A DNA stretch of 12,983 bases from a virus. Taxonomy: Duplodnaviria; Heunggongvirae; Uroviricota; Caudoviricetes. Positions 1 through 9,344 of the stretch are shown one piece after another. The notes below the pieces were generated by a model. That model searched no databases, was not told the DNA's origin, and saw only the letters and a program-made list of their open reading frames with translations. Position 1 is the first letter of the stretch; every line of letters begins with the position of its first letter. A program made the position numbers and the translations under genes. The stretch is taken from positions 1 to 12,983 of the IMG/VR virus record IMGVR_UViG_2802429224_000017; one strand, written 5' to 3'.

Positions 1-260
1 TTTTTTTAGATTTTCGTGCGCTTGATCGGATATATGATTTTTGCGGTTTTTGTTCGTTTTTCGGTTTTCGGTGGTCGCTGGTCGCTGGTCTGGCAGCATA
101 GGATCATCCTTTTTCGAAAATCAATGCTTTTTTTTGGAAAGTGCTTAAAAATTATCGTGCTGGCTGAATCAATAACCAGCAAAGGGTATTAAGTGTGGGT
201 GCGTTGAGGATGCCTGACACATCAGAGATGGCGGGAGATTACTCCCCCGCCTAGTCACTC

Positions 261-416
261 TTACTCTCTAGATTCGTAGTCTACGAAAACAGCGACCTCC
301 GTCTGGCCGGTTCGGATTCGTACCTCGCAGAGGTCTTTCCTCATTACCAGCGCCATCGCAATGACGGTTAAACAGATGACGATCAGGGCGATTAACATCG
401 CCTTTTGCTGCTTCAT
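261..416 (-). CDS. hok: Hok/Gef-family type I toxin, 51 aa small membrane protein
   Basis: Translation MKQQKAMLIALIVICLTVIAMALVMRKDLCEVRIRTGQTEVAVFVDYESRE is near-identical in length and sequence pattern to E. coli HokD/RelF and Gef as I recall them; single hydrophobic helix then conserved CEVRIRTGQTEVA motif; SD AAGGAG about 9 nt upstream of ATG at 416. Confidence 0.85.
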   Translation of the reverse strand: MKQQKAMLIALIVICLTVIAMALVMRKDLCEVRIRTGQTEVAVFVDYESRE

Positions 417-473
417 AGCCTGCTTCTCCTTGCCTTTCGGCACGTAAGAGGCTAACCTGATGTTGTCATGCAT
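261..473 (-). CDS. mok: Mok-like in-frame N-terminally extended reading frame overlapping hok (70 aa)
   Basis: In-frame ATG 19 codons upstream of hok ATG (MHDNIRLASYVPKGKEKQA + Hok) with GAGG 8 nt upstream; mirrors the mok/hok arrangement of known hok loci where Mok is an in-frame extension coupling hok translation (recalled, not verified). Confidence 0.45.
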   Translation of the reverse strand: MHDNIRLASYVPKGKEKQAMKQQKAMLIALIVICLTVIAMALVMRKDLCEVRIRTGQTEVAVFVDYESRE

Positions 474-590
474 AGGGAGCCTCAGATTAATGTTAAGCGT
501 CTTGCCGGACGCATAATGTTAACTGGGGCTTTTCTCTATCTGCCTTTTGGTGTTCATGCCTGAGACAGATAGCCTCAAGCACCCGCAACA

Positions 591-618
591 ATTCTACAAA
601 AAATCATCTCAATTTCAA
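591..618 (-). promoter_or_regulatory. Sigma70-type promoter (TTGAAA-16 bp-TAGAAT) immediately downstream of Q stop, reading toward hok; probable hok mRNA promoter
   Basis: On minus strand -35 TTGAAA (plus coords 613-618), 16-bp spacer, -10 TAGAAT (591-596); predicted start about 584 places the RNA 5-prime end at a sequence complementary to the region just beyond the hok 3-prime hairpin. Confidence 0.5.
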
Positions 619-620
619 TT

Positions 621-1031
621 TTACTGTATTTCTGCAACCGACCTTCCGGATGAGCCGCGCCCAACATATCTGTCCATTTCCAGTCTGATATCAAGCATCA
701 TCAACATCCCATCAACTACCCCTTCAGCCTTTTGCAATAAACGTCCAACCCAGCAATCGGAACGCCCATGCTTCTTTGCTAGTGCCATGAACGTCATTCC
801 GAACACATAGTAATCAACCAGTAAGTCATGTAAATCTTTGTTGTTCTTATTCAGCCTGGACATGCACCCGCAAATGACCATTGCGTCATCATCACTACAT
901 TGCGGACGTGATTTAACCTTTGACGGAATCAACCCCTTAAATCCGGCAGCAATGGACGACCAAGTAACATCCTCGTGGTTATTTGCCACCCATGCCCCCC
1001 ACCGTTCTAAAACCATCTGAATATCACGCAT
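621..1031 (-). CDS. Small Q-like late antiterminator (Phage_antitermQ-type, QuuD-like), 136 aa
   Basis: N-terminus [35 protein letters not shown] and Cys-rich [13 protein letters not shown] core match my recollection of small Q-family antiterminators of E. coli cryptic prophages; position downstream of the replication genes fits Q. Not verified by search. Confidence 0.6.
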
Positions 1032-1288
1032 CAGCGCAGTACCTCCTGCACCAGTTTTTCAAACTTACCAACTTTGGTTTCCAGCTCTGCCACACAATCC
1101 ACCAGCTCATCCACTGCTTTTTGTGCGCGATGTTTTGCCTGCATCAGTTCCCTGAGCGCTGGCACCATATCCCGACGAATGGCATCTTTTGTTACACCTG
1201 ATTTTTCCAGTTGTTCCGCCTGTCGCAACATTTCCTGTGCCTGTTTACGTAATTGCTCAGGGGTAAAAGTCATTGTCTGGTTGCTCAA
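1031..1288 (-). CDS. Hypothetical small coiled-coil protein (85 aa; alternative start at 1273)
   Basis: ORF on same strand as flanking genes, start overlaps DnaB-like stop (ATGA) and stop overlaps Q start; charged, helix-rich sequence; no recognisable family. Confidence 0.45.
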
Positions 1289-2676
1289 AAGAAACGCTCC
1301 ATCTTACTGCTGTCAGTTCGTTTGTTGCTGTATCTGCGCGGCTGGGGCTGCTGCATTGGGGTGGAAAGAATCTGTGCGCTTTCCTGATCCACAGGCAGAA
1401 AATGTCCGTTATAAAAACGCCGATAAATCGTCCCCAGAGAACCGTTACGTTGTTTCGTGATATTGATTTCTGCGATGCCCCTGGCCTGCGTATCCGGGTT
1501 GTACACTTCATCCCTGTAAAGCATCAGAATGATGTCTGCATCCGCCTCTATTTCTCCGGAATTTTTCAGGTCTGAGTTCATGGGGCGTTTATTGGGTCTG
1601 AACTCCACACCGCGGGAGAGCTGGCTCAGCGCAATCAACGGAAAACCACCGGATTTTGCCAGGCCTTTAAGCCCCTTTGAGATTTCACCAACGGCAAGGT
1701 CATGACGCCCCGTGGTTCGGGTTTTTATCAGTCCGAGATAATCAACCACCACCAGCGCCGTTTCCGGATGTTTAATCAGGTGGTGTTTCGTTGTTGCGCA
1801 TATCTCGTCAATGGTCAGGTTCGCCTGGTCCACCATCCAGATATTGCGCCCGGTCATCCGCCCCACTCCTTGTGAGAAACGTGCCCAGTCTTCGTCTTCA
1901 AAGTGAGCGACAGATTTCAGGCGTGATACCGGCATTCCTCCAGCCGCAGATACCATGCGTTCACCAATCTGGATGTTCGCCATTTCCATTGTGAACAGAA
2001 GAACACCATGCCCCTGCTCAGTCACCTTGTCGATGATATCCAGCGCCAGTTCGGTTTTGCCCATTGACGGACGAGCCGCAATAAATACCAGGTCGCCGGG
2101 CTCCATGCCGCCTGTTTTTGCGTCCAGTTCATCAATACCGGTCATCAACGTTCTGGATTTTTCCAGTCCCTGATTCCGGCATTCAACACGCTCAACCACT
2201 TCCGGAAGCACATCATCAATATGTACCGGCTGAATAACGCCCTTTTCCGTCGACAATGAGGCCATCATGTTCTGCGCATCCTTCAGGGCATCTTCAGCCG
2301 CTTCACAGGTATGCGCATCACGTAATTTCTGCAGCGCCTCATTCAGCGTTTTTTCTGCATCGCGCAATGCGGCATTGCGACGCAACGCCGCAACATAGTG
2401 CTCCAGTGAAGACTTCACCCAGGTTTTACGCCCGGTATCAGTAATCACCGGAGCAAGTTCCGGCATCTCATTACACAACAGCACAGGATCAATCACACCT
2501 GAAACACGGGCCTGTCTGCAGATGCCTGTGTAGATATCCCGATACGCTCGTACAGAAAAAACGTCCGCTGGCAGTGTGGCCAGAATATCCAACACTTCAG
2601 GATCTGCCCCACGCAGAAAGAACGCGCCAATGACAGCGCCTTCAAGGTCATCGTTACGCCAGACTGGTGTTGTCAT
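1285..2676 (-). CDS. DnaB-like replicative DNA helicase (463 aa from ATG at 2676)
   Basis: Walker A GDLVFIAARPSMGKTELALDI, later LVVVDYLGLI and RecA-fold motifs typical of the DnaB family; SD GAGGTG upstream of ATG 2676, which overlaps the stop of the upstream loader gene. The track start at 2715 is probably too far upstream. Confidence 0.85.
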   Translation of the reverse strand: MTTPVWRNDDLEGAVIGAFFLRGADPEVLDILATLPADVFSVRAYRDIYTGICRQARVSGVIDPVLLCNEMPELAPVITDTGRKTWVKSSLEHYVAALRRNAALRDAEKTLNEALQKLRDAHTCEAAEDALKDAQNMMASLSTEKGVIQPVHIDDVLPEVVERVECRNQGLEKSRTLMTGIDELDAKTGGMEPGDLVFIAARPSMGKTELALDIIDKVTEQGHGVLLFTMEMANIQIGERMVSAAGGMPVSRLKSVAHFEDEDWARFSQGVGRMTGRNIWMVDQANLTIDEICATTKHHLIKHPETALVVVDYLGLIKTRTTGRHDLAVGEISKGLKGLAKSGGFPLIALSQLSRGVEFRPNKRPMNSDLKNSGEIEADADIILMLYRDEVYNPDTQARGIAEINITKQRNGSLGTIYRRFYNGHFLPVDQESAQILSTPMQQPQPRRYSNKRTDSSKMERFF

Positions 2677-3563
2677 GCAGCCACACCTCTGATATGTACA
2701 CGGTAGCTTTCCCAACCAAACACCAGGCAGTTACGCCCACCATCAGTAACGCGATCCACAATCCGTTCACCAATGGACTCCTTAAGCTGGTCAAACGTCA
2801 GATTGCTGATCAAAATTGTCGGTAAAACGCTTTCGTAACGTGCATTGATGATTTCCTGCAGGATGGTTATCTCTGTTGGCGTACCGAACTGCACACCAAC
2901 CTCATCGATGATGAGCAGGTCCAGCGATACAAAATGGTCAATAACTTCATCTTCAGTGCGTTCAGAATTGTGACGCCAGGTATTTTTCACAGCGCGGGTC
3001 AGTCGCATGACATCCGTAATTTCGACAGTCGCCAGGTGGTGGCGAATAATATTTTTTGCCATTGATACAGCCAGGTGATTTTTCCCGGTACCGCAATTGC
3101 CAATCATGATCATGCTGGTACCCGCAGCAAGACACTTCTCCCATGAACTGGCATAGCGCCGACAAGCCTCAAGATTTCTCTGTGCGTCAGCATTCACAGC
3201 CTGGTAGTTCTCAAACTCGCAGTCCTGGAAGCGGCGGGCAATACCAGCTCTGTCAAGTAATTCATGAACTTTCAGGATGCGTAACGCCTCCTGTACCTGA
3301 TCCAGTTCATTCGCAATGCAGATCGGGCAACCAGACACCCGTTTGATGGTTTCCCCACGAACATCTGGCCCTTTCAACACCAGACGTGTGTATTTCCCGT
3401 GTTTCTCACACTCAGCAGTTTCCTCGCTTGTCAGCCAGTGTTCACAGCGCCACGGACGCTTCCCGGCACGGGCAAACTGCATCTCCTCCTCCAGTTCCGC
3501 CCTGCGGTTGAGCAATTGCGCTTTGTCGTGTTGTGCGTAGTGTTTTTTTAACTGTTCAAACAT
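2673..3563 (-). CDS. DnaC/IstB-like AAA+ helicase loader with Cys-rich N-terminal region (296 aa)
   Basis: Walker A GNCGTGKNHLAVSMA and Walker B LLIIDEVG; N-terminal CEHW...CEKH...CPIC arrangement suggests a zinc-binding module; SD GAGGTGA 7 nt upstream of ATG. Confidence 0.8.
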   Translation of the reverse strand: MFEQLKKHYAQHDKAQLLNRRAELEEEMQFARAGKRPWRCEHWLTSEETAECEKHGKYTRLVLKGPDVRGETIKRVSGCPICIANELDQVQEALRILKVHELLDRAGIARRFQDCEFENYQAVNADAQRNLEACRRYASSWEKCLAAGTSMIMIGNCGTGKNHLAVSMAKNIIRHHLATVEITDVMRLTRAVKNTWRHNSERTEDEVIDHFVSLDLLIIDEVGVQFGTPTEITILQEIINARYESVLPTILISNLTFDQLKESIGERIVDRVTDGGRNCLVFGWESYRVHIRGVAA

Positions 3564-3582
3564 TGTTCATCACCTCGAAAAA

Positions 3583-4392
3583 TCACCAGTTGAAGTTCGT
3601 TGAACCGTAGTCCTGCTCACTGAATCCCGAGATCGGGAGGCCGGTAGTTCGCCTACCTCCAGGAGCGGCTGGCTGTTGCCAGGATTCCTCGAAATGGCGA
3701 TCGGGTCCAAAGAACGTCGCGGCCTGCTTCACGAACTGTGTGCCGGTATTTCCTGTAGCACGTACCCAGGCGGCATACCGCTTCACGCCATCAAGCATGG
3801 TCTCCGGTTTTATTCCCTCCCTGATACGGGCTTTCCAGGCTTTGAAGGCTGCTGACTTGGAATTGCCACCAGCACGTTTGGGATATTCCTGCCAGGCCTG
3901 TTCAAATTCCGGTGAATATTCCTGTCGGGCAGAACGCGCTGGTGCAGACGCGTCAGCGGATGCGCCAATAGTTGATTCATTGACTGGTTCTTTGACTGGT
4001 TCAAAAGAGTGACTGGTTCTGGGTGAATCTCCTGCACTACCCCCTGGTGCAACTCCTGCACCACCTGGTGAATTTGCTGCACTAGGTAGTGAATTATTTG
4101 CACTACCACCTGGTGAATCTTTTGCACCATCAAGACGAAGAAGATAAATATTGCTCGAGTTCCCTTTTTCACCTTTCCGGGAAACTTTTTTTACCAGTCC
4201 AGATTCACAAAGAGCCGTAATATGATTCATCACAGAACGTTTGCTAATCTCGCACTGATCAGCAATATGCTGATAACTGGGCCAACACTCGCCCTGATCG
4301 CTGGCATTATCAGCCAGCTTAATCAGAACCAGTTTTCGCAACGGATTTCCCACACGAATTTTCATCGCTTTCACCATCAGGTCCATGCTCAT
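3583..4392 (-). CDS. Phage replication initiator-like protein: N-terminal winged-HTH domain, Pro/Gly/Ser-rich linker, C-terminal domain (269 aa)
   Basis: N-terminus LRKLVLIKLADNASDQGECWPSYQHIADQCEISKRSVMNHITALCESGLV is a typical replication-protein winged HTH; gene lies immediately upstream of the DnaC-like and DnaB-like genes; the linker is encoded by iteron-like DNA repeats. Confidence 0.6.
   Translation of the reverse strand: MSMDLMVKAMKIRVGNPLRKLVLIKLADNASDQGECWPSYQHIADQCEISKRSVMNHITALCESGLVKKVSRKGEKGNSSNIYLLRLDGAKDSPGGSANNSLPSAANSPGGAGVAPGGSAGDSPRTSHSFEPVKEPVNESTIGASADASAPARSARQEYSPEFEQAWQEYPKRAGGNSKSAAFKAWKARIREGIKPETMLDGVKRYAAWVRATGNTGTQFVKQAATFFGPDRHFEESWQQPAAPGGRRTTGLPISGFSEQDYGSTNFNW
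3981..4130. repeat. Iteron-like direct repeats inside the initiator gene (candidate origin of replication)
   Basis: Five roughly 22-bp direct repeats with consensus TGGTGAAT-n4-TGCACTACC at about 4020, 4044, 4065, 4087 and 4109, preceded by three copies of TGACTGGTTC (3981, 3993, 4010). This resembles the lambda arrangement of ori iterons within gene O. Confidence 0.5.
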
Positions 4393-4613
4393 AACACACC
4401 TCCCAGGCGTTTAAACATTTTTCCGGACTGAAACGCCATCAACGGATAGCTAATGGTGTAGTTACGCCCCAGTAATTCACACACAACTTTCTGGCTTTCG
4501 GTGCTGACCAGGCAAACACGCAGAACGTAGCCGTTGCTGGTGGCGAACCACTGCCCCACACGGGGGCAACGGTTGTATCGGTGACACAGGGAATTAACGA
4601 TGCGACGAATCAT
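4389..4613 (-). CDS. Hypothetical small Cys-containing protein (74 aa from ATG at 4613)
   Basis: ORF translationally coupled at both ends (ATGA overlaps with the 220-aa gene upstream and the initiator gene downstream); no family recognised. Confidence 0.4.
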   Translation of the reverse strand: MIRRIVNSLCHRYNRCPRVGQWFATSNGYVLRVCLVSTESQKVVCELLGRNYTISYPLMAFQSGKMFKRLGGVL

Positions 4614-5272
4614 GGGCGCACCTCCCATTGATTACGGCGGAAAGCGGTGTGACTGAGACTGGTTTCAGCCTCATGAAATGCTTCAATACAGCTCTCGTAG
4701 TACCGCATTGTGCGCAGACTTAACCCAAGCTGAAGCATCATCAGGCCATCAAGGGTGATGTAATAACCACGCAGGGAGTCACCATAGATGTGATAAGTGC
4801 CCGGTATGAAATTGCGGGTAAAAAAATCGCGCGAGCAGTTCAGATACTCGATTTTGTCGACGATGTTCTGGTGCATGCGCTTGAAGTGGCAGGCAACATG
4901 CAGGGAGAAAATAACAGCTTTGCCGTTGACGACTTCGATTTTCAGGTATGGGGAAGTTGGGACTGTAGCCATGATGGCAGCCTCCGATAACAGTGAATTA
5001 CCTTCACCACCGGAAACGCCAATTTCGCTGGTGGTGAACTGAACGGGGTTGGCGTAACCGGCGTTATCGGAAACCGGCGCACCTTTCGGTGCCCCCGTCC
5101 AGCCCACCATAATTTGGGTGTGCGCAGACGCAGACGACAAAAAAGACGCTGGCGCGTCATATATCGCCGATAACATTTCCAGGACGCCAATCCCGGCACC
5201 CGCTTTATAAGGTGCAGGGACAGTGTAACGTCCCGAAATTGCAGAATCAATATTTAGGCTTGAAACATTCAT
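4610..5272 (-). CDS. Hypothetical protein (220 aa), Gly/Ala/Ser-rich N-terminal half
   Basis: Longest ORF in the interval, same strand as the operon, stop overlaps the next start; no recognisable motifs. Confidence 0.5.
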   Translation of the reverse strand: MNVSSLNIDSAISGRYTVPAPYKAGAGIGVLEMLSAIYDAPASFLSSASAHTQIMVGWTGAPKGAPVSDNAGYANPVQFTTSEIGVSGGEGNSLLSEAAIMATVPTSPYLKIEVVNGKAVIFSLHVACHFKRMHQNIVDKIEYLNCSRDFFTRNFIPGTYHIYGDSLRGYYITLDGLMMLQLGLSLRTMRYYESCIEAFHEAETSLSHTAFRRNQWEVRP

Positions 5273-5350
5273 ATGCTTACTGGTATTTTTATTGATGTTC
5301 TTGGATTCTTGGGCCTGCTTTATGCAGTTGCCTGTATCAACGTTGAGCGA

Positions 5351-5375
5351 GCCGGGTCACTACCCGGCTTTTTTT
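5351..5375 (+). terminator. Intrinsic terminator-like hairpin (GCCGGGT-CACT-ACCCGGC followed by T7) in plus-strand orientation
   Basis: Perfect 7-bp GC-rich stem at 5351-5368 followed directly by TTTTTTT (5369-5375) on the plus strand, abutting the Rha stop codon; on the minus strand the hairpin is preceded by an A-run, so it may act bidirectionally or end an antisense RNA. Confidence 0.45.
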
Positions 5376-6082
5376 CACCGCTGCCAACCAATAACCTGAA
5401 ATAACCCCATTTTCGAGTGATACCAGCGAGTCCCTCGCGGTTCTGCTTCCTCCATAACCCGATAAAAAGCAGCCATAAACGGTTCCACGGCAACAATTGC
5501 ACGACGCGACAACAATCCGTCCGGCGTCATGAACTCGTGGGTATCGGTAGGAATTTGATAGGCATTCACCAGATTGCGGCATTTATCATCTGACAAACCG
5601 GTTTTCGCTTTCAGTTGGCGATATCCGGCATAGCCCTCACGAATGGTGCCCTTTTTGATTTGCTCAACTGTTTCGGCAACGTGGCTGACTTTTTCTTCCA
5701 CCTGAGTGATCCGTTTCTGCTGACGAACAGCTTCAAGAGCCATCGCAGCAACCATTTCGATTTCGCTCATTGGCTTACGGATCTGTTCTTCCAGTTCGCG
5801 CCAGCGATCTACCAGGCGAGCAGTGAATTCAGGACAGAGCTGTGCGACGACAATGATGCTGTCGCGCTTACCTTGTTCTCCTTCAAACAGGTAATGCTCA
5901 TATTGAACTTTAAAACCTAAGTTATTGATTCTTTCGGAAACCTCAATTTGAGGAGACCGGACAACGCCACCTTTGGCTAATGTTTCAATAGTGCGTTTCA
6001 CATTGTCATGACGTTTACCCACCAGCTCTGCAATTTCAACGCTGGTCATGGATACTTTGCCGTTAAAAATTGCGGTGTTCAT
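5375..6082 (-). CDS. Phage regulatory protein, Rha family (235 aa)
   Basis: N-terminus VSMTSVEIAELVGKRHDNVKRTIETL matches the conserved Rha (Phage_pRha) signature; sits directly downstream of the cro-like gene; SD AGGAGA upstream, start overlaps cro-like stop. Confidence 0.8.
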   Translation of the reverse strand: MNTAIFNGKVSMTSVEIAELVGKRHDNVKRTIETLAKGGVVRSPQIEVSERINNLGFKVQYEHYLFEGEQGKRDSIIVVAQLCPEFTARLVDRWRELEEQIRKPMSEIEMVAAMALEAVRQQKRITQVEEKVSHVAETVEQIKKGTIREGYAGYRQLKAKTGLSDDKCRNLVNAYQIPTDTHEFMTPDGLLSRRAIVAVEPFMAAFYRVMEEAEPRGTRWYHSKMGLFQVIGWQR

Positions 6083-6369
6083 TGTTTATCTCCTGCGTGT
6101 ATTCCATCCGCTCTGTGTGGTGAACTTGGATTTAGGCTTTTGCGTAACAAGTTAGGAATTCCATCTTCAGGGTGAGGATAAAGATCTGGCCTTAAGCCAT
6201 GAGGCGTAACCTTCCATGCAACTACTTCACATACTCGTAAAACGAAACGAGCAGGAATTGTGCTTTTTGAAAACCACTGATTCACCGCTTGCGGCGTCAC
6301 ACCAAGATTTCGCGCTATGGCATTTTGCGCAATTAATGCACGAAGTTTGTCGTAATCATTTCCTTTCAT
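6079..6369 (-). CDS. Cro-like HTH regulator of the YdaS type (96 aa)
   Basis: NLGVTPQAVNQWFSKSTIP...GLRPD resembles YdaS/Cro-type small HTH proteins; divergently transcribed from the cI-like repressor gene across a 133-bp AT-rich intergenic region. Confidence 0.65.
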   Translation of the reverse strand: MKGNDYDKLRALIAQNAIARNLGVTPQAVNQWFSKSTIPARFVLRVCEVVAWKVTPHGLRPDLYPHPEDGIPNLLRKSLNPSSPHRADGIHAGDKQ

Positions 6370-6502
6370 AACAAAGCACCAATATTAACTTTATAAATCA
6401 AGAATACATCAAGTTTAAATTAACATGCAAGTTGCAAAAGGATCGAATACACTAAAATCAAGTAAAGATTTATCCTTGTAAAGAAACCCACAGGATTTGG
6501 TC
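6370..6502. promoter_or_regulatory. Immunity-region intergenic control region (divergent cI-like and cro-like promoters, candidate operators)
   Basis: AT-rich 133-bp spacer between divergent repressor genes; repeated ATCAAG(T) motifs at 6397, 6408 and 6457 and the palindrome TGCAAGTTGCA at 6428-6438; exact -10/-35 elements not assigned with confidence. Confidence 0.5.
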
Positions 6503-7192
6503 ATGAAGAACGTCAAAAACACGGAAAATCGAATAGCCGCGATGCTGAAAGCAAAAGGATGGACTCAGGCTCAACTGGCCCGCAAGTTAGGTGTGAGTGC
6601 GCAATCAGTGCAGTACTGGACAACAGGAAAAACATTTCCACGGAGTGATAAGCTCGCGCATTTATCAGAGATTAGCGGTTATCCACAATCCTGGTTCTTA
6701 GGTGAAGACACCTCACCAACCTTTTCCTCGCAAGAGAAACACCAGACAAGAACAGATAGCGTCGTGTTTAATGTCCTTGATGTTGAGTTTAGTTGCGGTG
6801 ATGGAACTCATGTCCGTGGTGACTTGATAGATGTAGTGCGCTCAATAGAACTTGATCCTGAATATGCCCGACGTCTTGTTGGAAATCGGGCATTCAAAAA
6901 TATAGAAATAGGTAACGCCAGAGGAGACAGTATGGCTCCCACAATCTCACCTGGCGACCTTCTTTTTCTTGATAAGACAGTAACTTATTTTGATGGCGAT
7001 GGTATTTATGCATTTTGTTTTGATGGAGAATGCTACGTGAAAAGGCTTCAAAAAATTGGAAGCAAAATCATGGTGTTATCTGATAACCCCAATTATCAAC
7101 CATGGAGCATCGAAAAAGAGGGGTTAGCTCTGCTTTATATCCAGTCTAAAGTGATCTCATCAGTACCATTCAACATAAACAGATTTGGTTAG
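6503..7192 (+). CDS. cI-like prophage repressor (N-terminal XRE-type HTH, C-terminal LexA/S24 autopeptidase domain), 229 aa
   Basis: HTH WTQAQLARKLGVSAQSVQYW; C-terminal GDSMAP (catalytic Ser) and CYVKRL (Lys) dyad typical of LexA/cI/UmuD; AGGA 6 nt upstream of ATG at 6503 (the track used TTG at 6497). Confidence 0.9.
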   Translation: MKNVKNTENRIAAMLKAKGWTQAQLARKLGVSAQSVQYWTTGKTFPRSDKLAHLSEISGYPQSWFLGEDTSPTFSSQEKHQTRTDSVVFNVLDVEFSCGDGTHVRGDLIDVVRSIELDPEYARRLVGNRAFKNIEIGNARGDSMAPTISPGDLLFLDKTVTYFDGDGIYAFCFDGECYVKRLQKIGSKIMVLSDNPNYQPWSIEKEGLALLYIQSKVISSVPFNINRFG

Positions 7193-7203
7193 TCTTTGAT
7201 TTT

Positions 7204-7226
7204 AACGGGCTTTGCCCGTTTTTTTT
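7204..7226 (+). terminator. Rho-independent terminator downstream of the repressor gene
   Basis: AACGGGC-TTT-GCCCGTT hairpin (7204-7220) followed by a run of 8 T, 12 nt after the repressor stop codon. Confidence 0.7.
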
Positions 7227-7256
7227 CTGCCTGAAATATACGATATCAATTTTTTC

Positions 7257-7285
7257 TTGACAGCCTATTTCCCAAAGCATAATAT
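7257..7285 (+). promoter_or_regulatory. Near-consensus sigma70 promoter (TTGACA-17 bp-TAATAT), pL-like early-left promoter
   Basis: TTGACA at 7257-7262, 17-bp spacer, TAATAT at 7280-7285; dyad ATCAAT-n7-TTGAT (7292-7308) overlaps the predicted start and is a candidate operator. Confidence 0.6.
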
Positions 7286-7338
7286 CGCACCATCAATTAT
7301 AACTTGATTTGATTCAATTTAAAATTGTTGGTGGATAT

Positions 7339-7887
7339 ATGAAGACACTAAAAGCAACTCCAGAAACAACTAATTTTATCAACTGCGGCTGTGTTACGCT
7401 TAAGGGCTTAGAACTTGATTCCTTTGCATTAAATATTGCAAATTTGCTAAGTGCTGTACGCACATTCCATCTTCTGGATTGTGCTCGCTCAAAGGAACTG
7501 GGCATTGAGGTAATGGAATTTATCCATGAATATGCTCTATCTGCTGCTTCTCCTGCACAACAAAAACAATCCTTCCCTGAAAGCTGGCTGGTTAACCTTC
7601 GCACCCAACGCGAAGCCTGCGGCTTAACAACCGCCGAACTCGCCAGGCTGCTCGCTCTTGATGAAGAAATCATCATCCAGTGGGAGAGCGGAGAGTATGA
7701 ACCAACCATCAGTATGCTTATCCCACTGGCAAATATTCTTGGCTGCGATCCGATGTGGCTGTTAACTGGTGAGGTTACTCCTCCGGAGCAACCAAAAAGT
7801 GAGGAGCAGCAACACCATGACGCATCTCAACAAGTTTGCTCCTTATCTCGCGAAGCTCTTCTACGGAAGAACCAATACCAATGGTGA
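7339..7887 (+). CDS. Two-domain protein: unknown N-terminal domain plus C-terminal XRE-family HTH (182 aa)
   Basis: C-terminal LTTAELARLLALDEEIIIQWESGEYEPTISMLIPLANILGCDPMWLL is an XRE-type HTH; N-terminal roughly 90 aa share a domain with the next gene; first gene after the pL-like promoter; GGTGGA upstream of ATG 7339. The C-terminal 37 codons overlap a minus-strand ORF with a good SD. Confidence 0.55.
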   Translation: MKTLKATPETTNFINCGCVTLKGLELDSFALNIANLLSAVRTFHLLDCARSKELGIEVMEFIHEYALSAASPAQQKQSFPESWLVNLRTQREACGLTTAELARLLALDEEIIIQWESGEYEPTISMLIPLANILGCDPMWLLTGEVTPPEQPKSEEQQHHDASQQVCSLSREALLRKNQYQW

Positions 7888-8015
7888 CATAATCGCCGCT
7901 TCGCCCCTCAAGGTACATGCGAACATTTTTATCAATCATTGCGGAAACAGTCTCAATATGAAAACACTTCTGAGACTCGCTATATAGCAGAACATATAAG
8001 TCAGCTGAGGAAGCC

Positions 8016-8381
8016 ATGAAAAAGTTCGAAAACATAACTGTTCTCCATGTTGATGACTTTGATTATACAAACCCGGACCTTCTCCCGGAGGTTGTAAAGG
8101 CAATAGATGTTGCCGATATAGTGATTAGAGGAAAGAGAATTGTCAAAAACAGGCTCGCATGCACTTCAGGAGCAATGACAGAAACAACCTCACAACAAGA
8201 TGATTATGAAGGCATTTGTCCGGAGCCTGATTCATTTGCGGTAAATGTTTATCATTTATTGCATGCAACACAGGTATTACATATGTCCAGTAATCACGAA
8301 ACAAAAGCACTTGGCAGCGAAATTCTGAATTTTGCATGTGAATATGCAAAAGCTGCTGCCGAAAAAGAATTAGCGCAATAA
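8016..8381 (+). CDS. Hypothetical protein (121 aa) whose C-terminal about 50 aa are paralogous to the N-terminal domain of the preceding HTH protein
   Basis: By-eye alignment DSFAVNVYHLLHATQVLHMSSNHETKALGSEILNFACEYAKAAA versus DSFALNIANLLSAVRTFHLLDCARSKELGIEVMEFIHEYALSAA (about 22 of 47 identical); SD GAGGAAG upstream. Confidence 0.55.
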   Translation: MKKFENITVLHVDDFDYTNPDLLPEVVKAIDVADIVIRGKRIVKNRLACTSGAMTETTSQQDDYEGICPEPDSFAVNVYHLLHATQVLHMSSNHETKALGSEILNFACEYAKAAAEKELAQ

Positions 8382-8577
8382 CAATAAATATTCCCTGAAT
8401 GTTTATTACGGTTTTATCGCCGGGGATTGTTGCAACCTTTATTCGCAGGAGATTATGTTATGACTTTCCTGAAACATAAGGCATCGTATAAAACTGCCTG
8501 CCTCATTGCACAACATGGAGATTCTTATCTTCATATAGCCAACCTGTATTTGCGCAAAGCATATGGGAGATAAATAA

Positions 8578-8766
8578 ATGAAAGAAAAACAACAGAATAT
8601 AACACATAAAAAAGTAAGAGTGTTGCTAACCATTGAAAATGGTGAAGTAATTTACTCAAAACATCTGCTGGATAATGAATTCGTTGGCTGCATGGATACA
8701 TTTCTGTGGATGGCAAAAAGAGCTGGCTACACGATTATTCCACCAGCAAAGGAGCAAATATTATGA
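8578..8766 (+). CDS. Hypothetical small protein (62 aa)
   Basis: GGGAGA 7 nt upstream of ATG; stop overlaps the start of the next gene (ATGA), indicating translational coupling. Confidence 0.45.
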   Translation: MKEKQQNITHKKVRVLLTIENGEVIYSKHLLDNEFVGCMDTFLWMAKRAGYTIIPPAKEQIL

Positions 8767-9344
8767 ATCATTCAGAGTTCCGACCAGAAGTAACGCCACA
8801 TGGCATAAAAATTGGTAATACAACCATTGATTATATTCAGGCCGTACAGCGGCTTAATGATGGCGAATTCGATAATCCATACTGGCACGGTTTAAGAATC
8901 ATGCAATGTCTTGCCGAAGCTGATGATGCCGGATTGCTGGGAAGATTTTCAGTCGATCTGAAGGTTGCTCAGTGGCGCTGGCTGTATGTGATGAAGTTTA
9001 TCAGTGAAGAGGAAGACAAGAACGGCACTATTGATATCCCTAACGATAACGGGACGACAGATCGCGCAGTTATTTACAAGGGGAAACATGGTTGCATAAG
9101 TATATACCCAGGACCACTTCGCATTGCCCTGCAAAACCATGTCGAATGGGGATTTATTGAAAAATATGGCGAAACTGAAGGCATGGGGCGAGTTCTGTTT
9201 CTATATCAAAAAATGCTCATTGCAGATCTTGATAATGGTTTCATTCTCTCTGCTATGGGGCGCGAAGGGCTTGAACTCCTTCTGGATAAAATGATTAACG
9301 ACCTGAATACTCATGGTATGCCAGAAGCGCCAGTGACACATTAA
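8763..9344 (+). CDS. Hypothetical protein (193 aa from ATG at 8763)
   Basis: AAGGAG 7-8 nt upstream of ATG 8763 (the track start at 8706 lacks an SD); ORF uninterrupted for 193 codons; no family recognised. Confidence 0.6.
   Translation: MNHSEFRPEVTPHGIKIGNTTIDYIQAVQRLNDGEFDNPYWHGLRIMQCLAEADDAGLLGRFSVDLKVAQWRWLYVMKFISEEEDKNGTIDIPNDNGTTDRAVIYKGKHGCISIYPGPLRIALQNHVEWGFIEKYGETEGMGRVLFLYQKMLIADLDNGFILSAMGREGLELLLDKMINDLNTHGMPEAPVTH

What the first reader, a model, noticed from the sequence alone, without database searches (positions are those of the whole stretch)
193..620. Complete hok/mok-type type I toxin locus downstream of the Q gene, with mRNA fold-back complementarity
Besides the Hok ORF there is an in-frame 19-codon upstream extension with its own SD (mok-like), a strong promoter (TTGAAA-16-TAGAAT, plus coords 591-618) whose predicted start lies about 168 nt upstream of the hok ATG, and a post-stop GC hairpin (230-251). 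The predicted mRNA 5-prime end (minus strand of 573-584, GGGUGCUUGAGG) is complementary, with one bulged C, to a 3-prime segment (minus strand of 197-209), as expected for the fold-back inhibition element of hok mRNAs; the implied transcript is about 390 nt. An antisense Sok-like RNA would be expected on the plus strand across the mok start (roughly 440-540); a candidate -35 TTGCCT (430-435) / -10 TAACCT (453-458) and a hairpin GCGTC-TTGCCG-GACGC (497-512) are present, but its ends are not clear from sequence. A membrane-depolarising toxin here would sit in or near the Q-dependent late transcription unit.
Basis: partly seen in the sequence, partly recalled or inferred. Interest (0 to 1): 0.55.

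Follow-up and report, generated by a model that had tools for sequence, protein, structure and literature searches.

The report
Ordinary hok/mok/sok toxin–antitoxin locus

Summary
On the minus strand of 193-620 lie:
- a promoter, TTGAAA-16-TAGAAT;
- a transcript start at 584;
- a 70-codon mok ORF with a 51-codon hok ORF in the same frame (Pfam HOK_GEF, E 1.3e-21);
- a conserved 3' stem-loop at 230-251;
- a 3' element (197-209) that pairs with the 5' end (573-584).

On the plus strand lies a Sok-like RNA (about 465-533), behind a promoter identical to that of sokW.

The hok mRNA region is 92-95% identical to hokW/mokW/sokW of phage 933W/Sp5 and to "hokD" loci. Such loci occur in 4933 of 5426 complete E. 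coli genomes. The exact Hok and Mok proteins are already in NCBI, named Hok family toxin.

Two corrections:
- The 230-251 hairpin is the family-conserved 3' stem-loop and has no U-run. By analogy with R1 it is the 3' end of the processed mRNA, not the terminator.
- In relatives, the Q-dependent promoter-terminator cassette lies about 3.5-4.3 kb further downstream, after hok and a restriction-modification island. hok is therefore upstream of the late unit, at the end of the early operon.

Novelty: already known. A variable heptamer tract next to it is the more unusual thing here.

The parts
613..618 (-). hok promoter -35 hexamer TTGAAA, starting 3 nt after the Q stop codon
   Evidence: The TTG is shared with other hok loci, but the rest of the upstream DNA is shared only with PhiR12_3.
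591..596 (-). hok promoter -10 hexamer TAGAAT
   Evidence: A -10-like hexamer is kept at this position in all aligned intact hok loci.
573..584 (-). Predicted hok mRNA 5' end and tac element, GGGUGCUUGAGG
   Evidence: The Rfam model begins at 584. It pairs with 197-209 in the minimum-energy fold and the pairing is conserved.
525..532 (-). ucb / anti-Shine-Dalgarno box AAAGCCCC. It pairs with the mok SD in the full-length fold and is the alternative partner of tac.
   Evidence: Fold. The consensus structures from Rfam and RNAalifold pair tac with this box. The element is named by analogy with R1 (PMC9841398).
480..483 (-). mok Shine-Dalgarno sequence GAGG
   Evidence: GAGG upstream of an ATG at -57/-58 is conserved in the family.
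261..473 (-). mok ORF, 70 codons, in frame with hok
   Evidence: It is equivalent to the annotated mokW. The exact protein is in NCBI.
426..431 (-). hok Shine-Dalgarno sequence AAGGAG
   Evidence: Sequence. It is nearly invariant in alignment A5.
261..416 (-). hok ORF, 51 aa membrane toxin
   Evidence: Pfam HOK_GEF, E 1.3e-21. It is 90% identical to HokW. The exact protein is named Hok family toxin in NCBI.
230..251 (-). Conserved GC stem-loop of the 3' UTR; probably the 3' end of the processed, translatable mRNA
   Evidence: Fold. Seven of its 8 pairs keep pairing through changes on both sides in some sequences. The role is inferred from R1 (PMC9841398).
197..209 (-). fbi element CCUCAACGCACCC, complementary to the 5' end with one bulged C
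   Evidence: It lies 45-55 nt after the stop codon in every intact locus.
148..181 (-). Terminator-like hairpin with a T-run downstream of fbi; a possible primary 3' end of the hok transcript
   Evidence: This is a consensus match only. Other hok loci have unrelated hairpin-plus-T-run sequences at the same place.
430..458 (+). Sok promoter: -35 TTGCCT, 17-nt spacer, -10 TAACCT
   Evidence: Identical to the sokW region of 933W. The mutagenic primer YO-421 in PMC8621323 alters the complement of this -10 hexamer, and the promoter-less construct became toxic. The TTG and GGCTA motifs are conserved across the family.
465..533 (+). Predicted Sok antisense RNA (about 69 nt): a 10-nt single-stranded 5' tail over the mok start, a long hairpin, then UUUU
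   Evidence: Mapped from the sokW annotation through alignment A1. Fold -30.7 kcal/mol, z -5.3. The ends have not been mapped experimentally.
621..1031 (-). Context: antiterminator Q gene (136 aa) directly upstream and on the same strand
   Evidence: Pfam PF06530, E 2.4e-51. It is 78% identical to Q of H-19B and distantly related to Q21.

Best explanation
Window 148-620 holds an intact hok/mok/sok type I toxin-antitoxin module of the hokW/hokD subfamily, carried by a phiP27-like prophage of Escherichia.

Shown from sequence: all the parts are present and conserved. These are the promoter, tac, ucb, mok start, hok, 3' stem-loop, fbi, Sok promoter and Sok hairpin.

Inferred from the R1 and hokW work:
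1. The minus-strand promoter constitutively makes a stable RNA of about 390-435 nt. Pairing of its 5' end with the fbi element near its 3' end, together with ucb pairing to the mok SD, keeps it closed and untranslatable.
2. Slow 3' trimming back to the 230-251 stem-loop lets the RNA refold and exposes the mok start.
3. The short-lived Sok RNA (plus strand, about 465-533) binds across the mok SD and start. This blocks mok translation, and with it the coupled hok translation, and marks the duplex for RNase III.
4. When the Sok supply stops, Hok is made and damages the inner membrane.

Context, inferred from relatives: the module and an adjoining restriction-modification island were inserted between Q and its PR'-tR' cassette. 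hok therefore sits at the distal end of the early operon, co-directional with it, and outside the Q-modified late unit.
For: - Family identity: Rfam RF01794 scores 117.5 bits over 584..411. Pfam HOK_GEF, E 1.3e-21.
- Similarity: 92.0% identical to 933W hokW over 388 columns and 95.1% to SE11 hokD. hokW, mokW and sokW are annotated in 933W.
- Function of the closest relative: hokW-sokW was shown to be a working toxin/antisense pair. SokW is lost on prophage induction and HokW helps lysis (PMC8621323).
- Fold-back: present in the minimum-energy fold, z -8.2. It is conserved with compensatory changes.
- Sok: the fold matches that of sokW and the promoter is identical to sokW's.
- Intactness: K-12-type hokD loci lack the 5' part and show no pairing (L030 and L031). 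This copy has every element.
- Context: the PR'-tR' cassette of H-19B abuts the Q stop codon. A closely similar copy (near-identical over the first ~90 aligned bases; 77% mean column identity over the whole alignment) lies after hok and the restriction-modification genes in PhiR12_3. A similar cassette lies in the same position in L057, which carries an exact 33-nt match to the window's Q-hok junction.
Against: - No transcript data exist for this copy. The 5' and 3' ends of both RNAs are inferred.
- The minimum-energy fold of the 3'-trimmed RNA does not show the tac-ucb 'open' form.
- Many chromosomal hok copies are inactive.
- The window's own contig ends 260 nt after hok. The position of PR' is therefore seen only in relatives (99.98%, 91% and 81% identical).
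- Covariation in the tac-fbi helix is modest because tac is almost invariant within the subfamily.
Confidence: 0.9

Rival explanations
1. The locus is a decayed, non-functional hok relic, like several chromosomal hok copies of E. coli K-12. It is recognisable by homology but no longer expresses toxin or antisense RNA.
For: Degenerate copies are common in the loci fetched here. L047 and L050 have frameshifted Hok. L029 has a deleted tac. L030, L031 and L017 lack the whole 5' region. Hok here differs from HokW at 5 of 51 residues.
Against: Every regulatory element is intact and in register. The promoter's -35 is closer to consensus than that of 933W. The residues invariant across six diverse Hok proteins are kept. 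The five changes are conservative or lie at the C-terminal end.
Confidence: 0.07
2. The promoter just after Q (618..591) is itself the Q-loading late promoter. Q-modified polymerase would then read through the hok mRNA into the downstream genes, with hok mRNA playing the part of the short terminated PR' transcript.
For: In H-19B the -35 of PR' starts 2 nt after the Q stop codon. Here the -35 starts 3 nt after it. The -35 region is not part of the DNA shared with other hok loci.
Against: - Relatives with the same Q-hok junction keep a separate H-19B-type PR'-tR' cassette downstream, followed by tRNA genes.
- The promoter spacer shows no similarity to the H-19B cassette.
- The first 30 transcribed bases contain no good -10-like pause element with both A2 and T6. 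The best candidates are TATCTG and GAGGCT, read directly from the sequence.
- The -10 hexamer and everything downstream belong to the conserved hok block.
Confidence: 0.03

Closest known systems
hokW/mokW/sokW of Stx2 phages 933W and Sp5 (VT2-Sakai)
   Same: - 92% nucleotide identity over the whole mRNA; Hok is 46/51 identical.
- mok is in frame and 70 codons long.
- The Sok promoter is identical, and the Sok hairpin is the same, including the subfamily-specific 16-nt tip.
- tac and fbi are identical.
- It is prophage-borne.
   Different: - The Sok 5' tail and mok N-terminal region differ: GUCAUGCAUAGG here against GUUCAGCAUGGAUUG in sokW.
- The -35 of the hok promoter is TTGAAA here and TTGCGG in 933W.
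- Genomic position differs. In 933W the locus is near the right end of the genome, far from Q. Here it is directly after Q.
'hokD' / Hok-Gef family loci of E. coli prophages (for example SE11, ECSE_RS08665)
   Same: 95% identity, including the mok/Sok-tail region. Matches are present in 4933 of 5426 complete E. coli genomes.
   Different: In SE11 and in phage mEp460 the locus sits in the nin region upstream of Q. The K-12-type hokD behind relBE lacks the promoter, tac, mok and sok (L030 and L031).
hok/sok (parB) of plasmid R1, the prototype
   Same: The architecture and all named elements are the same: tac, ucb, mok SD, hok, 3' stem-loop, fbi, and Sok antisense to the mok start (PMC9841398).
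   Different: - Only about 53% nucleotide identity to R1-like loci. Hok identity was not computed for this window; HokW is 44% identical to R1 Hok (PMC8621323).
- mok is in the +1 frame in the R1 type.
- tac is GGCGCUU and fbi is AAGCGCC, a compensated change.
- The Sok hairpin is shorter.
- R1 is a plasmid whose module works by post-segregational killing; this is a prophage.
Phage PhiR12_3 (PV340552) Q-hok region
   Same: This is the only record in the phage collection with the same Q-hok junction. It also has a heptamer tract and a restriction-modification gene after hok.
   Different: - 81-83% identity.
- mok is cut short by a TAG 5 nt before the hok ATG.
- 82 heptamer copies against 2 here.
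- The methyltransferase is annotated as BcgI-like.

Membership tests
hok/sok (Hok/Gef) type I toxin-antitoxin | Small Hok/Gef membrane peptide (about 50 aa; Pfam PF01848) with the family's conserved residues | tested here: met
   HOK_GEF E 1.3e-21, profile positions 1-42 of 42. Invariant residues L8, C15, T17, R26, L29, C30, E31, Y47 and E48 are kept across six diverse Hoks.
hok/sok (Hok/Gef) type I toxin-antitoxin | Upstream overlapping leader ORF (mok) with its own SD, about 57 nt before the hok ATG | tested here: met
   ATG at -57, preceded by GAGG, 70 codons. The same position holds in 933W, SE11 and R1-like loci, although the frame varies.
hok/sok (Hok/Gef) type I toxin-antitoxin | Long-range pairing of the mRNA 5' end (tac) with a 3' element (fbi) | tested here: met
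   Present in the minimum-energy fold, z -8.2. 93.4% of cells are paired against 37-52% when slid, and three pairs are compensated. RNAalifold retains pairs 2-6/430-434.
hok/sok (Hok/Gef) type I toxin-antitoxin | Alternative pairings: ucb with the mok SD in the closed form, tac with ucb in the open form | tested here: inconclusive
   The ucb-SD stem is in the full-length fold. The tac-ucb stem is in the Rfam and RNAalifold consensus structures. The minimum-energy fold of the trimmed RNA does not adopt it.
hok/sok (Hok/Gef) type I toxin-antitoxin | Stable stem-loop in the 3' UTR between the stop codon and fbi | tested here: met
   Present at 230-251. Seven of its 8 pairs show changes on both sides somewhere in the family.
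hok/sok (Hok/Gef) type I toxin-antitoxin | Antisense Sok gene: a promoter inside the hok leader and an RNA of about 65-70 nt with a single-stranded 5' tail over the mok start and a terminator hairpin | tested here: met
   The promoter is identical to sokW's. The fold is a tail plus hairpin plus UUUU, z -5.3. This is a sequence-level test only.
hok/sok (Hok/Gef) type I toxin-antitoxin | Hok kills or arrests cells, and Sok RNA neutralises it post-transcriptionally | not testable with these tools
   Shown for the 92%-identical hokW-sokW (PMC8621323) and for R1 (PMC9841398), but not for this copy.
Q-dependent late transcription unit of a lambdoid phage | The gene lies downstream of the PR' promoter, pause site and tR' cassette on which Q loads | tested here: not met
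   In relatives, an H-19B-type cassette lies downstream of hok and the restriction-modification genes (L053 4996-5080; L057 about 470-385). It could not be seen in the window itself, whose contig ends 260 nt after hok.

The most novel reading that the evidence does not exclude
hok lies co-directionally at the very end of the early operon, with no terminator between Q and hok. On prophage induction, early transcription reading through Q would run head-on into the Sok promoter. It would shut off Sok by transcriptional interference and also supply extra hok-sense RNA.

That would couple Hok production to induction, making it a lysis-timing helper. It would also offer a mechanism for the unexplained RecA- and induction-dependent loss of SokW reported for hokW.

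In the lambdoid contexts inspected, hok is co-oriented with the flanking early-region genes: the window, PhiR12_3, L057, SE11 and mEp460. In E7-1N7 it is co-oriented with Q, but two opposite-strand genes lie between them. In 933W it is co-oriented with the genes upstream of it. That these would be reached by the leftward early operon after circularisation is my inference.

The same module may also stabilise the adjoining, apparently phase-variable restriction-modification island wedged between Q and PR'.
Probability: 0.2. Interest if true: 0.45.

Novelty: already known. Interest (0 to 1): 0.15.

Why it matters
The locus itself adds nothing new. It is one more copy of a textbook module, and its proteins are already named in public databases.

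Its modest value is contextual. It shows a hok/sok module, together with a restriction-modification island, lodged between the antiterminator gene and the late promoter that the antiterminator acts on. That is the region just upstream of the slot, downstream of PR', where Shiga toxin genes sit in related phages.

The arrangement also gives a simple, testable idea for how prophage induction could switch off the antitoxin RNA.

Tried and rejected
- The search for related loci with an alignment of six diverse Hok proteins failed because no stretch was conserved enough.
- A first duplex search between long 5' and 3' segments over-extended and was uninformative. It was replaced by a 13-nt tac query against a 100-nt 3' UTR window with shuffles.
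- A cross-family matrix of tac against fbi energies was only partly discriminating, because the GGGUGC/GCACCC core is shared.
- The minimum-energy fold of the 3'-trimmed RNA did not reproduce the published open form.
- The promoter-like TTGATT-18-TATGCT downstream of hok (window about 95-124, minus strand) was considered as a late promoter. It was rejected because it is the SD and ATG of the next ORF, followed by the heptamer tract.
- The idea that the hok promoter doubles as PR' was rejected once the real cassette was found downstream in relatives.
- The Q21 binding-site sequence could not be obtained from the text of the structural paper, so no direct search for a Q-binding element was possible.
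- A search of window 1-150 against complete E. coli genomes matched only the 68-133 stretch. The last 67 bases of the window remain unplaced.

Full report
**What is there**

The minus strand of window 148-620 reads, in order:
- a promoter, TTGAAA-16-TAGAAT (618..591), the only 10/12 consensus match in the first 1100 bases;
- a predicted start at 584;
- a 168-nt leader;
- a 70-codon ORF (473..261) whose last 51 codons (416..261) form a Hok/Gef peptide (Pfam PF01848, E 1.3e-21);
- a GC stem-loop (251..230);
- the sequence CCUCAACGCACCC (209..197);
- a terminator-like hairpin with a T-run (181..148).

Rfam's family RF01794 ("sok") matches 584..411 at 117.5 bits, against a gathering score of 59. 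That match is on the hok-sense strand and ends at the hok AUG. The model therefore describes the hok leader rather than the antisense RNA itself.

**The fold-back**

The 392-nt RNA from 584 to 193 folds at -160.3 kcal/mol, with z = -8.2 and none of 100 shuffles as stable.

To test this beyond one sequence I collected hok loci from several sources:
- phages (933W, PhiR12_3);
- E. coli SE11;
- eight plasmids;
- 32 genome loci, including Pseudocitrobacter, Pantoea, Kluyvera and a Vibrio plasmid.

In every locus with an intact 5' end, the first 13 bases find a complement 45-55 nt after the hok stop codon. Loci that lack the 5' part do not: the relBE-hokD type (L017, L030, L031) and L029 with a deleted tac.

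On a 29-sequence alignment the 12-pair helix is 93.4% paired, against 37-52% when one arm is slid by 1-3 columns. Three pairs change on both sides, for example U-A to C-G in R1-like loci. RNAalifold on its own keeps the 5'-3' pairs 2-6/430-434 and also finds the alternative tac-ucb helix. Covariation is modest because the 5' element is almost invariant in this subfamily, but the pairing is clearly conserved.

**mok**

The family data show three cases:
- in frame, ATG at -57: here, 933W (annotated mokW), SE11 and many others;
- +1 frame, ATG at -58, ending 4 nt before the hok stop: R1-like plasmid loci;
- ending at a TAG 5 nt before the hok ATG: PhiR12_3.

What is conserved is the GAGG-ATG start site. 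This fits the published finding that translation of mok up to the hok start, not the Mok product, is what matters (PMC9841398).

**Sok**

The annotated sokW of 933W (71 nt) maps through the alignment to window 465..about 533 on the plus strand.

Upstream, the sequence from -35 TTGCCT (430-435) through -10 TAACCT (453-458) is identical to that of 933W. The mutagenic primer in the hokW-sokW paper alters the complement of this -10 hexamer, and the resulting promoter-less construct became toxic (PMC8621323).

The predicted RNA has a 10-nt single-stranded 5' tail lying over the mok start codon. The 16-nt hairpin tip is an insertion specific to the E. coli hokW/hokD subfamily.

The 5' tail differs from that of sokW but matches SE11.

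**The 230-251 hairpin**

It has no U-run after it, is conserved across the family, and covaries. In R1 the corresponding last stem-loop protects the 3' end of the processed, translatable mRNA (PMC9841398). I read it the same way, not as the terminator. Whether the primary transcript ends just after fbi (about 392 nt) or at the 181..148 hairpin (about 435 nt) cannot be decided from sequence.

**How common it is**

- The region matches 4933 of 5426 complete E. coli genomes, with a median of 2 places per genome, and 110 phage records.
- The hok mRNA is 92.0% identical to 933W hokW and 95.1% to SE11 hokD, but only about 53% to R1-like loci.
- The exact 51-aa and 70-aa proteins are in NCBI, named [quoted passage not shown].
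- Window 1-9031 is 100% identical to the end of an NCBI contig (L005).
- hokW-sokW has been shown experimentally to be a toxin/antisense pair. Its SokW RNA disappears on RecA-dependent prophage induction, and its toxin speeds lysis and doubles phage release (PMC8621323).

**Context**

The window is the early region of a phiP27-like prophage. The gene directly upstream of hok is an antiterminator Q (PF06530). It is 78% identical to Q of H-19B and distantly related to Q21.

Similarity to other hok loci runs only from about 597 to about 190. The -35 lies in junction DNA shared only with phage PhiR12_3.

The hok -35 starts 3 nt after the Q stop, just where PR' starts in H-19B. I therefore tested whether this promoter is the late promoter. 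It is not:
- In PhiR12_3, a closely similar copy of the H-19B PR'-tR' cassette (near-identical over the first ~90 aligned bases) lies 4.3 kb downstream of Q, after hok and a restriction-modification gene pair.
- IMG/VR contig L057 carries an exact 33-nt match to the window's Q-hok junction and is 91% identical to the window overall. There a similar cassette follows hok, a 710-aa methyltransferase and a specificity subunit, and is itself followed by tRNA-Thr and tRNA-Gly.
- Contig L004, 99.98% identical to the window, has the same methyltransferase and specificity genes after hok.

So hok/sok and the restriction-modification island were inserted between Q and PR'. hok is upstream of the Q-modified unit and at the distal end of the early operon. 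No terminator-like site lies between Q and hok.

**Most likely mechanism**

The locus most likely works as in R1 and hokW:
1. A stable, closed hok mRNA is made constitutively.
2. Slow 3' trimming opens it.
3. Short-lived Sok blocks the mok start and triggers RNase III decay of the duplex.
4. Loss of Sok lets Hok be made.

The parts are shown here; the dynamics are inferred.

What triggers Sok loss in a prophage is not known. In the lambdoid contexts I inspected, hok is co-oriented with the flanking early-region genes. In E7-1N7 two opposite-strand genes separate it from Q. For 933W, the link to the leftward early operon is my inference. Early transcription would therefore meet the Sok promoter head-on. 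That is a speculative but testable link to induction.

**Verdict**

The element is already known and low in interest.

Noticed in passing
window 75-107 (minus strand); L004 8934-8990; L057 about 3816-3740; L053 about 1200-1790; L058 6017-6556: A heptamer tract (CCAGCGA)n follows an SD and ATG just downstream of hok. Copy number differs among relatives of the window:
- 2 in the window and in L005;
- 7 in L004;
- 9 in L011 and L057, where a 710-711 aa HsdM-like methyltransferase ORF is in frame with that ATG;
- at least 11 in L056;
- 82 in phage PhiR12_3, where the tract is annotated as a spurious minus-strand ORF.

hok, the tract, the methyltransferase and the specificity subunit travel together in several prophages. 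This looks like a phase-variable restriction-modification system.
   Followed up: partly
window 1-67: The window and its identical contig L005 diverge from the 99.98%-identical L004 at position 68, just past the heptamer tract. The contig ends at window position 1. These 67 bases have no match in complete E. coli genomes or in the phage collection. What follows hok in this strain is unknown.
   Followed up: partly
window 5027-5114 (-) and 5139-5215 (-): Rfam matches to C4 antisense RNA (82.8 bits) and to the isrK Hfq-binding RNA (63.7 bits). They lie within the 5' part of the 4610-5272 ORF, which matches Phage_ASH/pRha in the identical contig. By my own knowledge of phage P1, this resembles its antirepressor control region.
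   Followed up: no
window 411-584 (-): The Rfam family named 'sok' (RF01794) matches the hok-sense strand, is 157 positions long, and ends at the hok AUG. It therefore models the hok leader, with the tac-ucb structure, and not the roughly 70-nt Sok RNA on the other strand.
   Followed up: yes
window 621-665 (-), the Q C-terminus: Q here is 136 aa, whereas most members of its 90% cluster are 121 aa and end at ...LEMDR. The extra 15 residues lie in the junction DNA shared with PhiR12_3. Their first residues resemble the tail of H-19B Q. This suggests a recombination breakpoint inside the 3' end of Q.
   Followed up: partly
L002 about 4225-4278 (PhiR12_3): In PhiR12_3 the mok frame is closed by a TAG 5 nt before the hok ATG, leaving a 17-codon upstream ORF. 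This is a natural variant in which mok translation stops just before hok.
   Followed up: no
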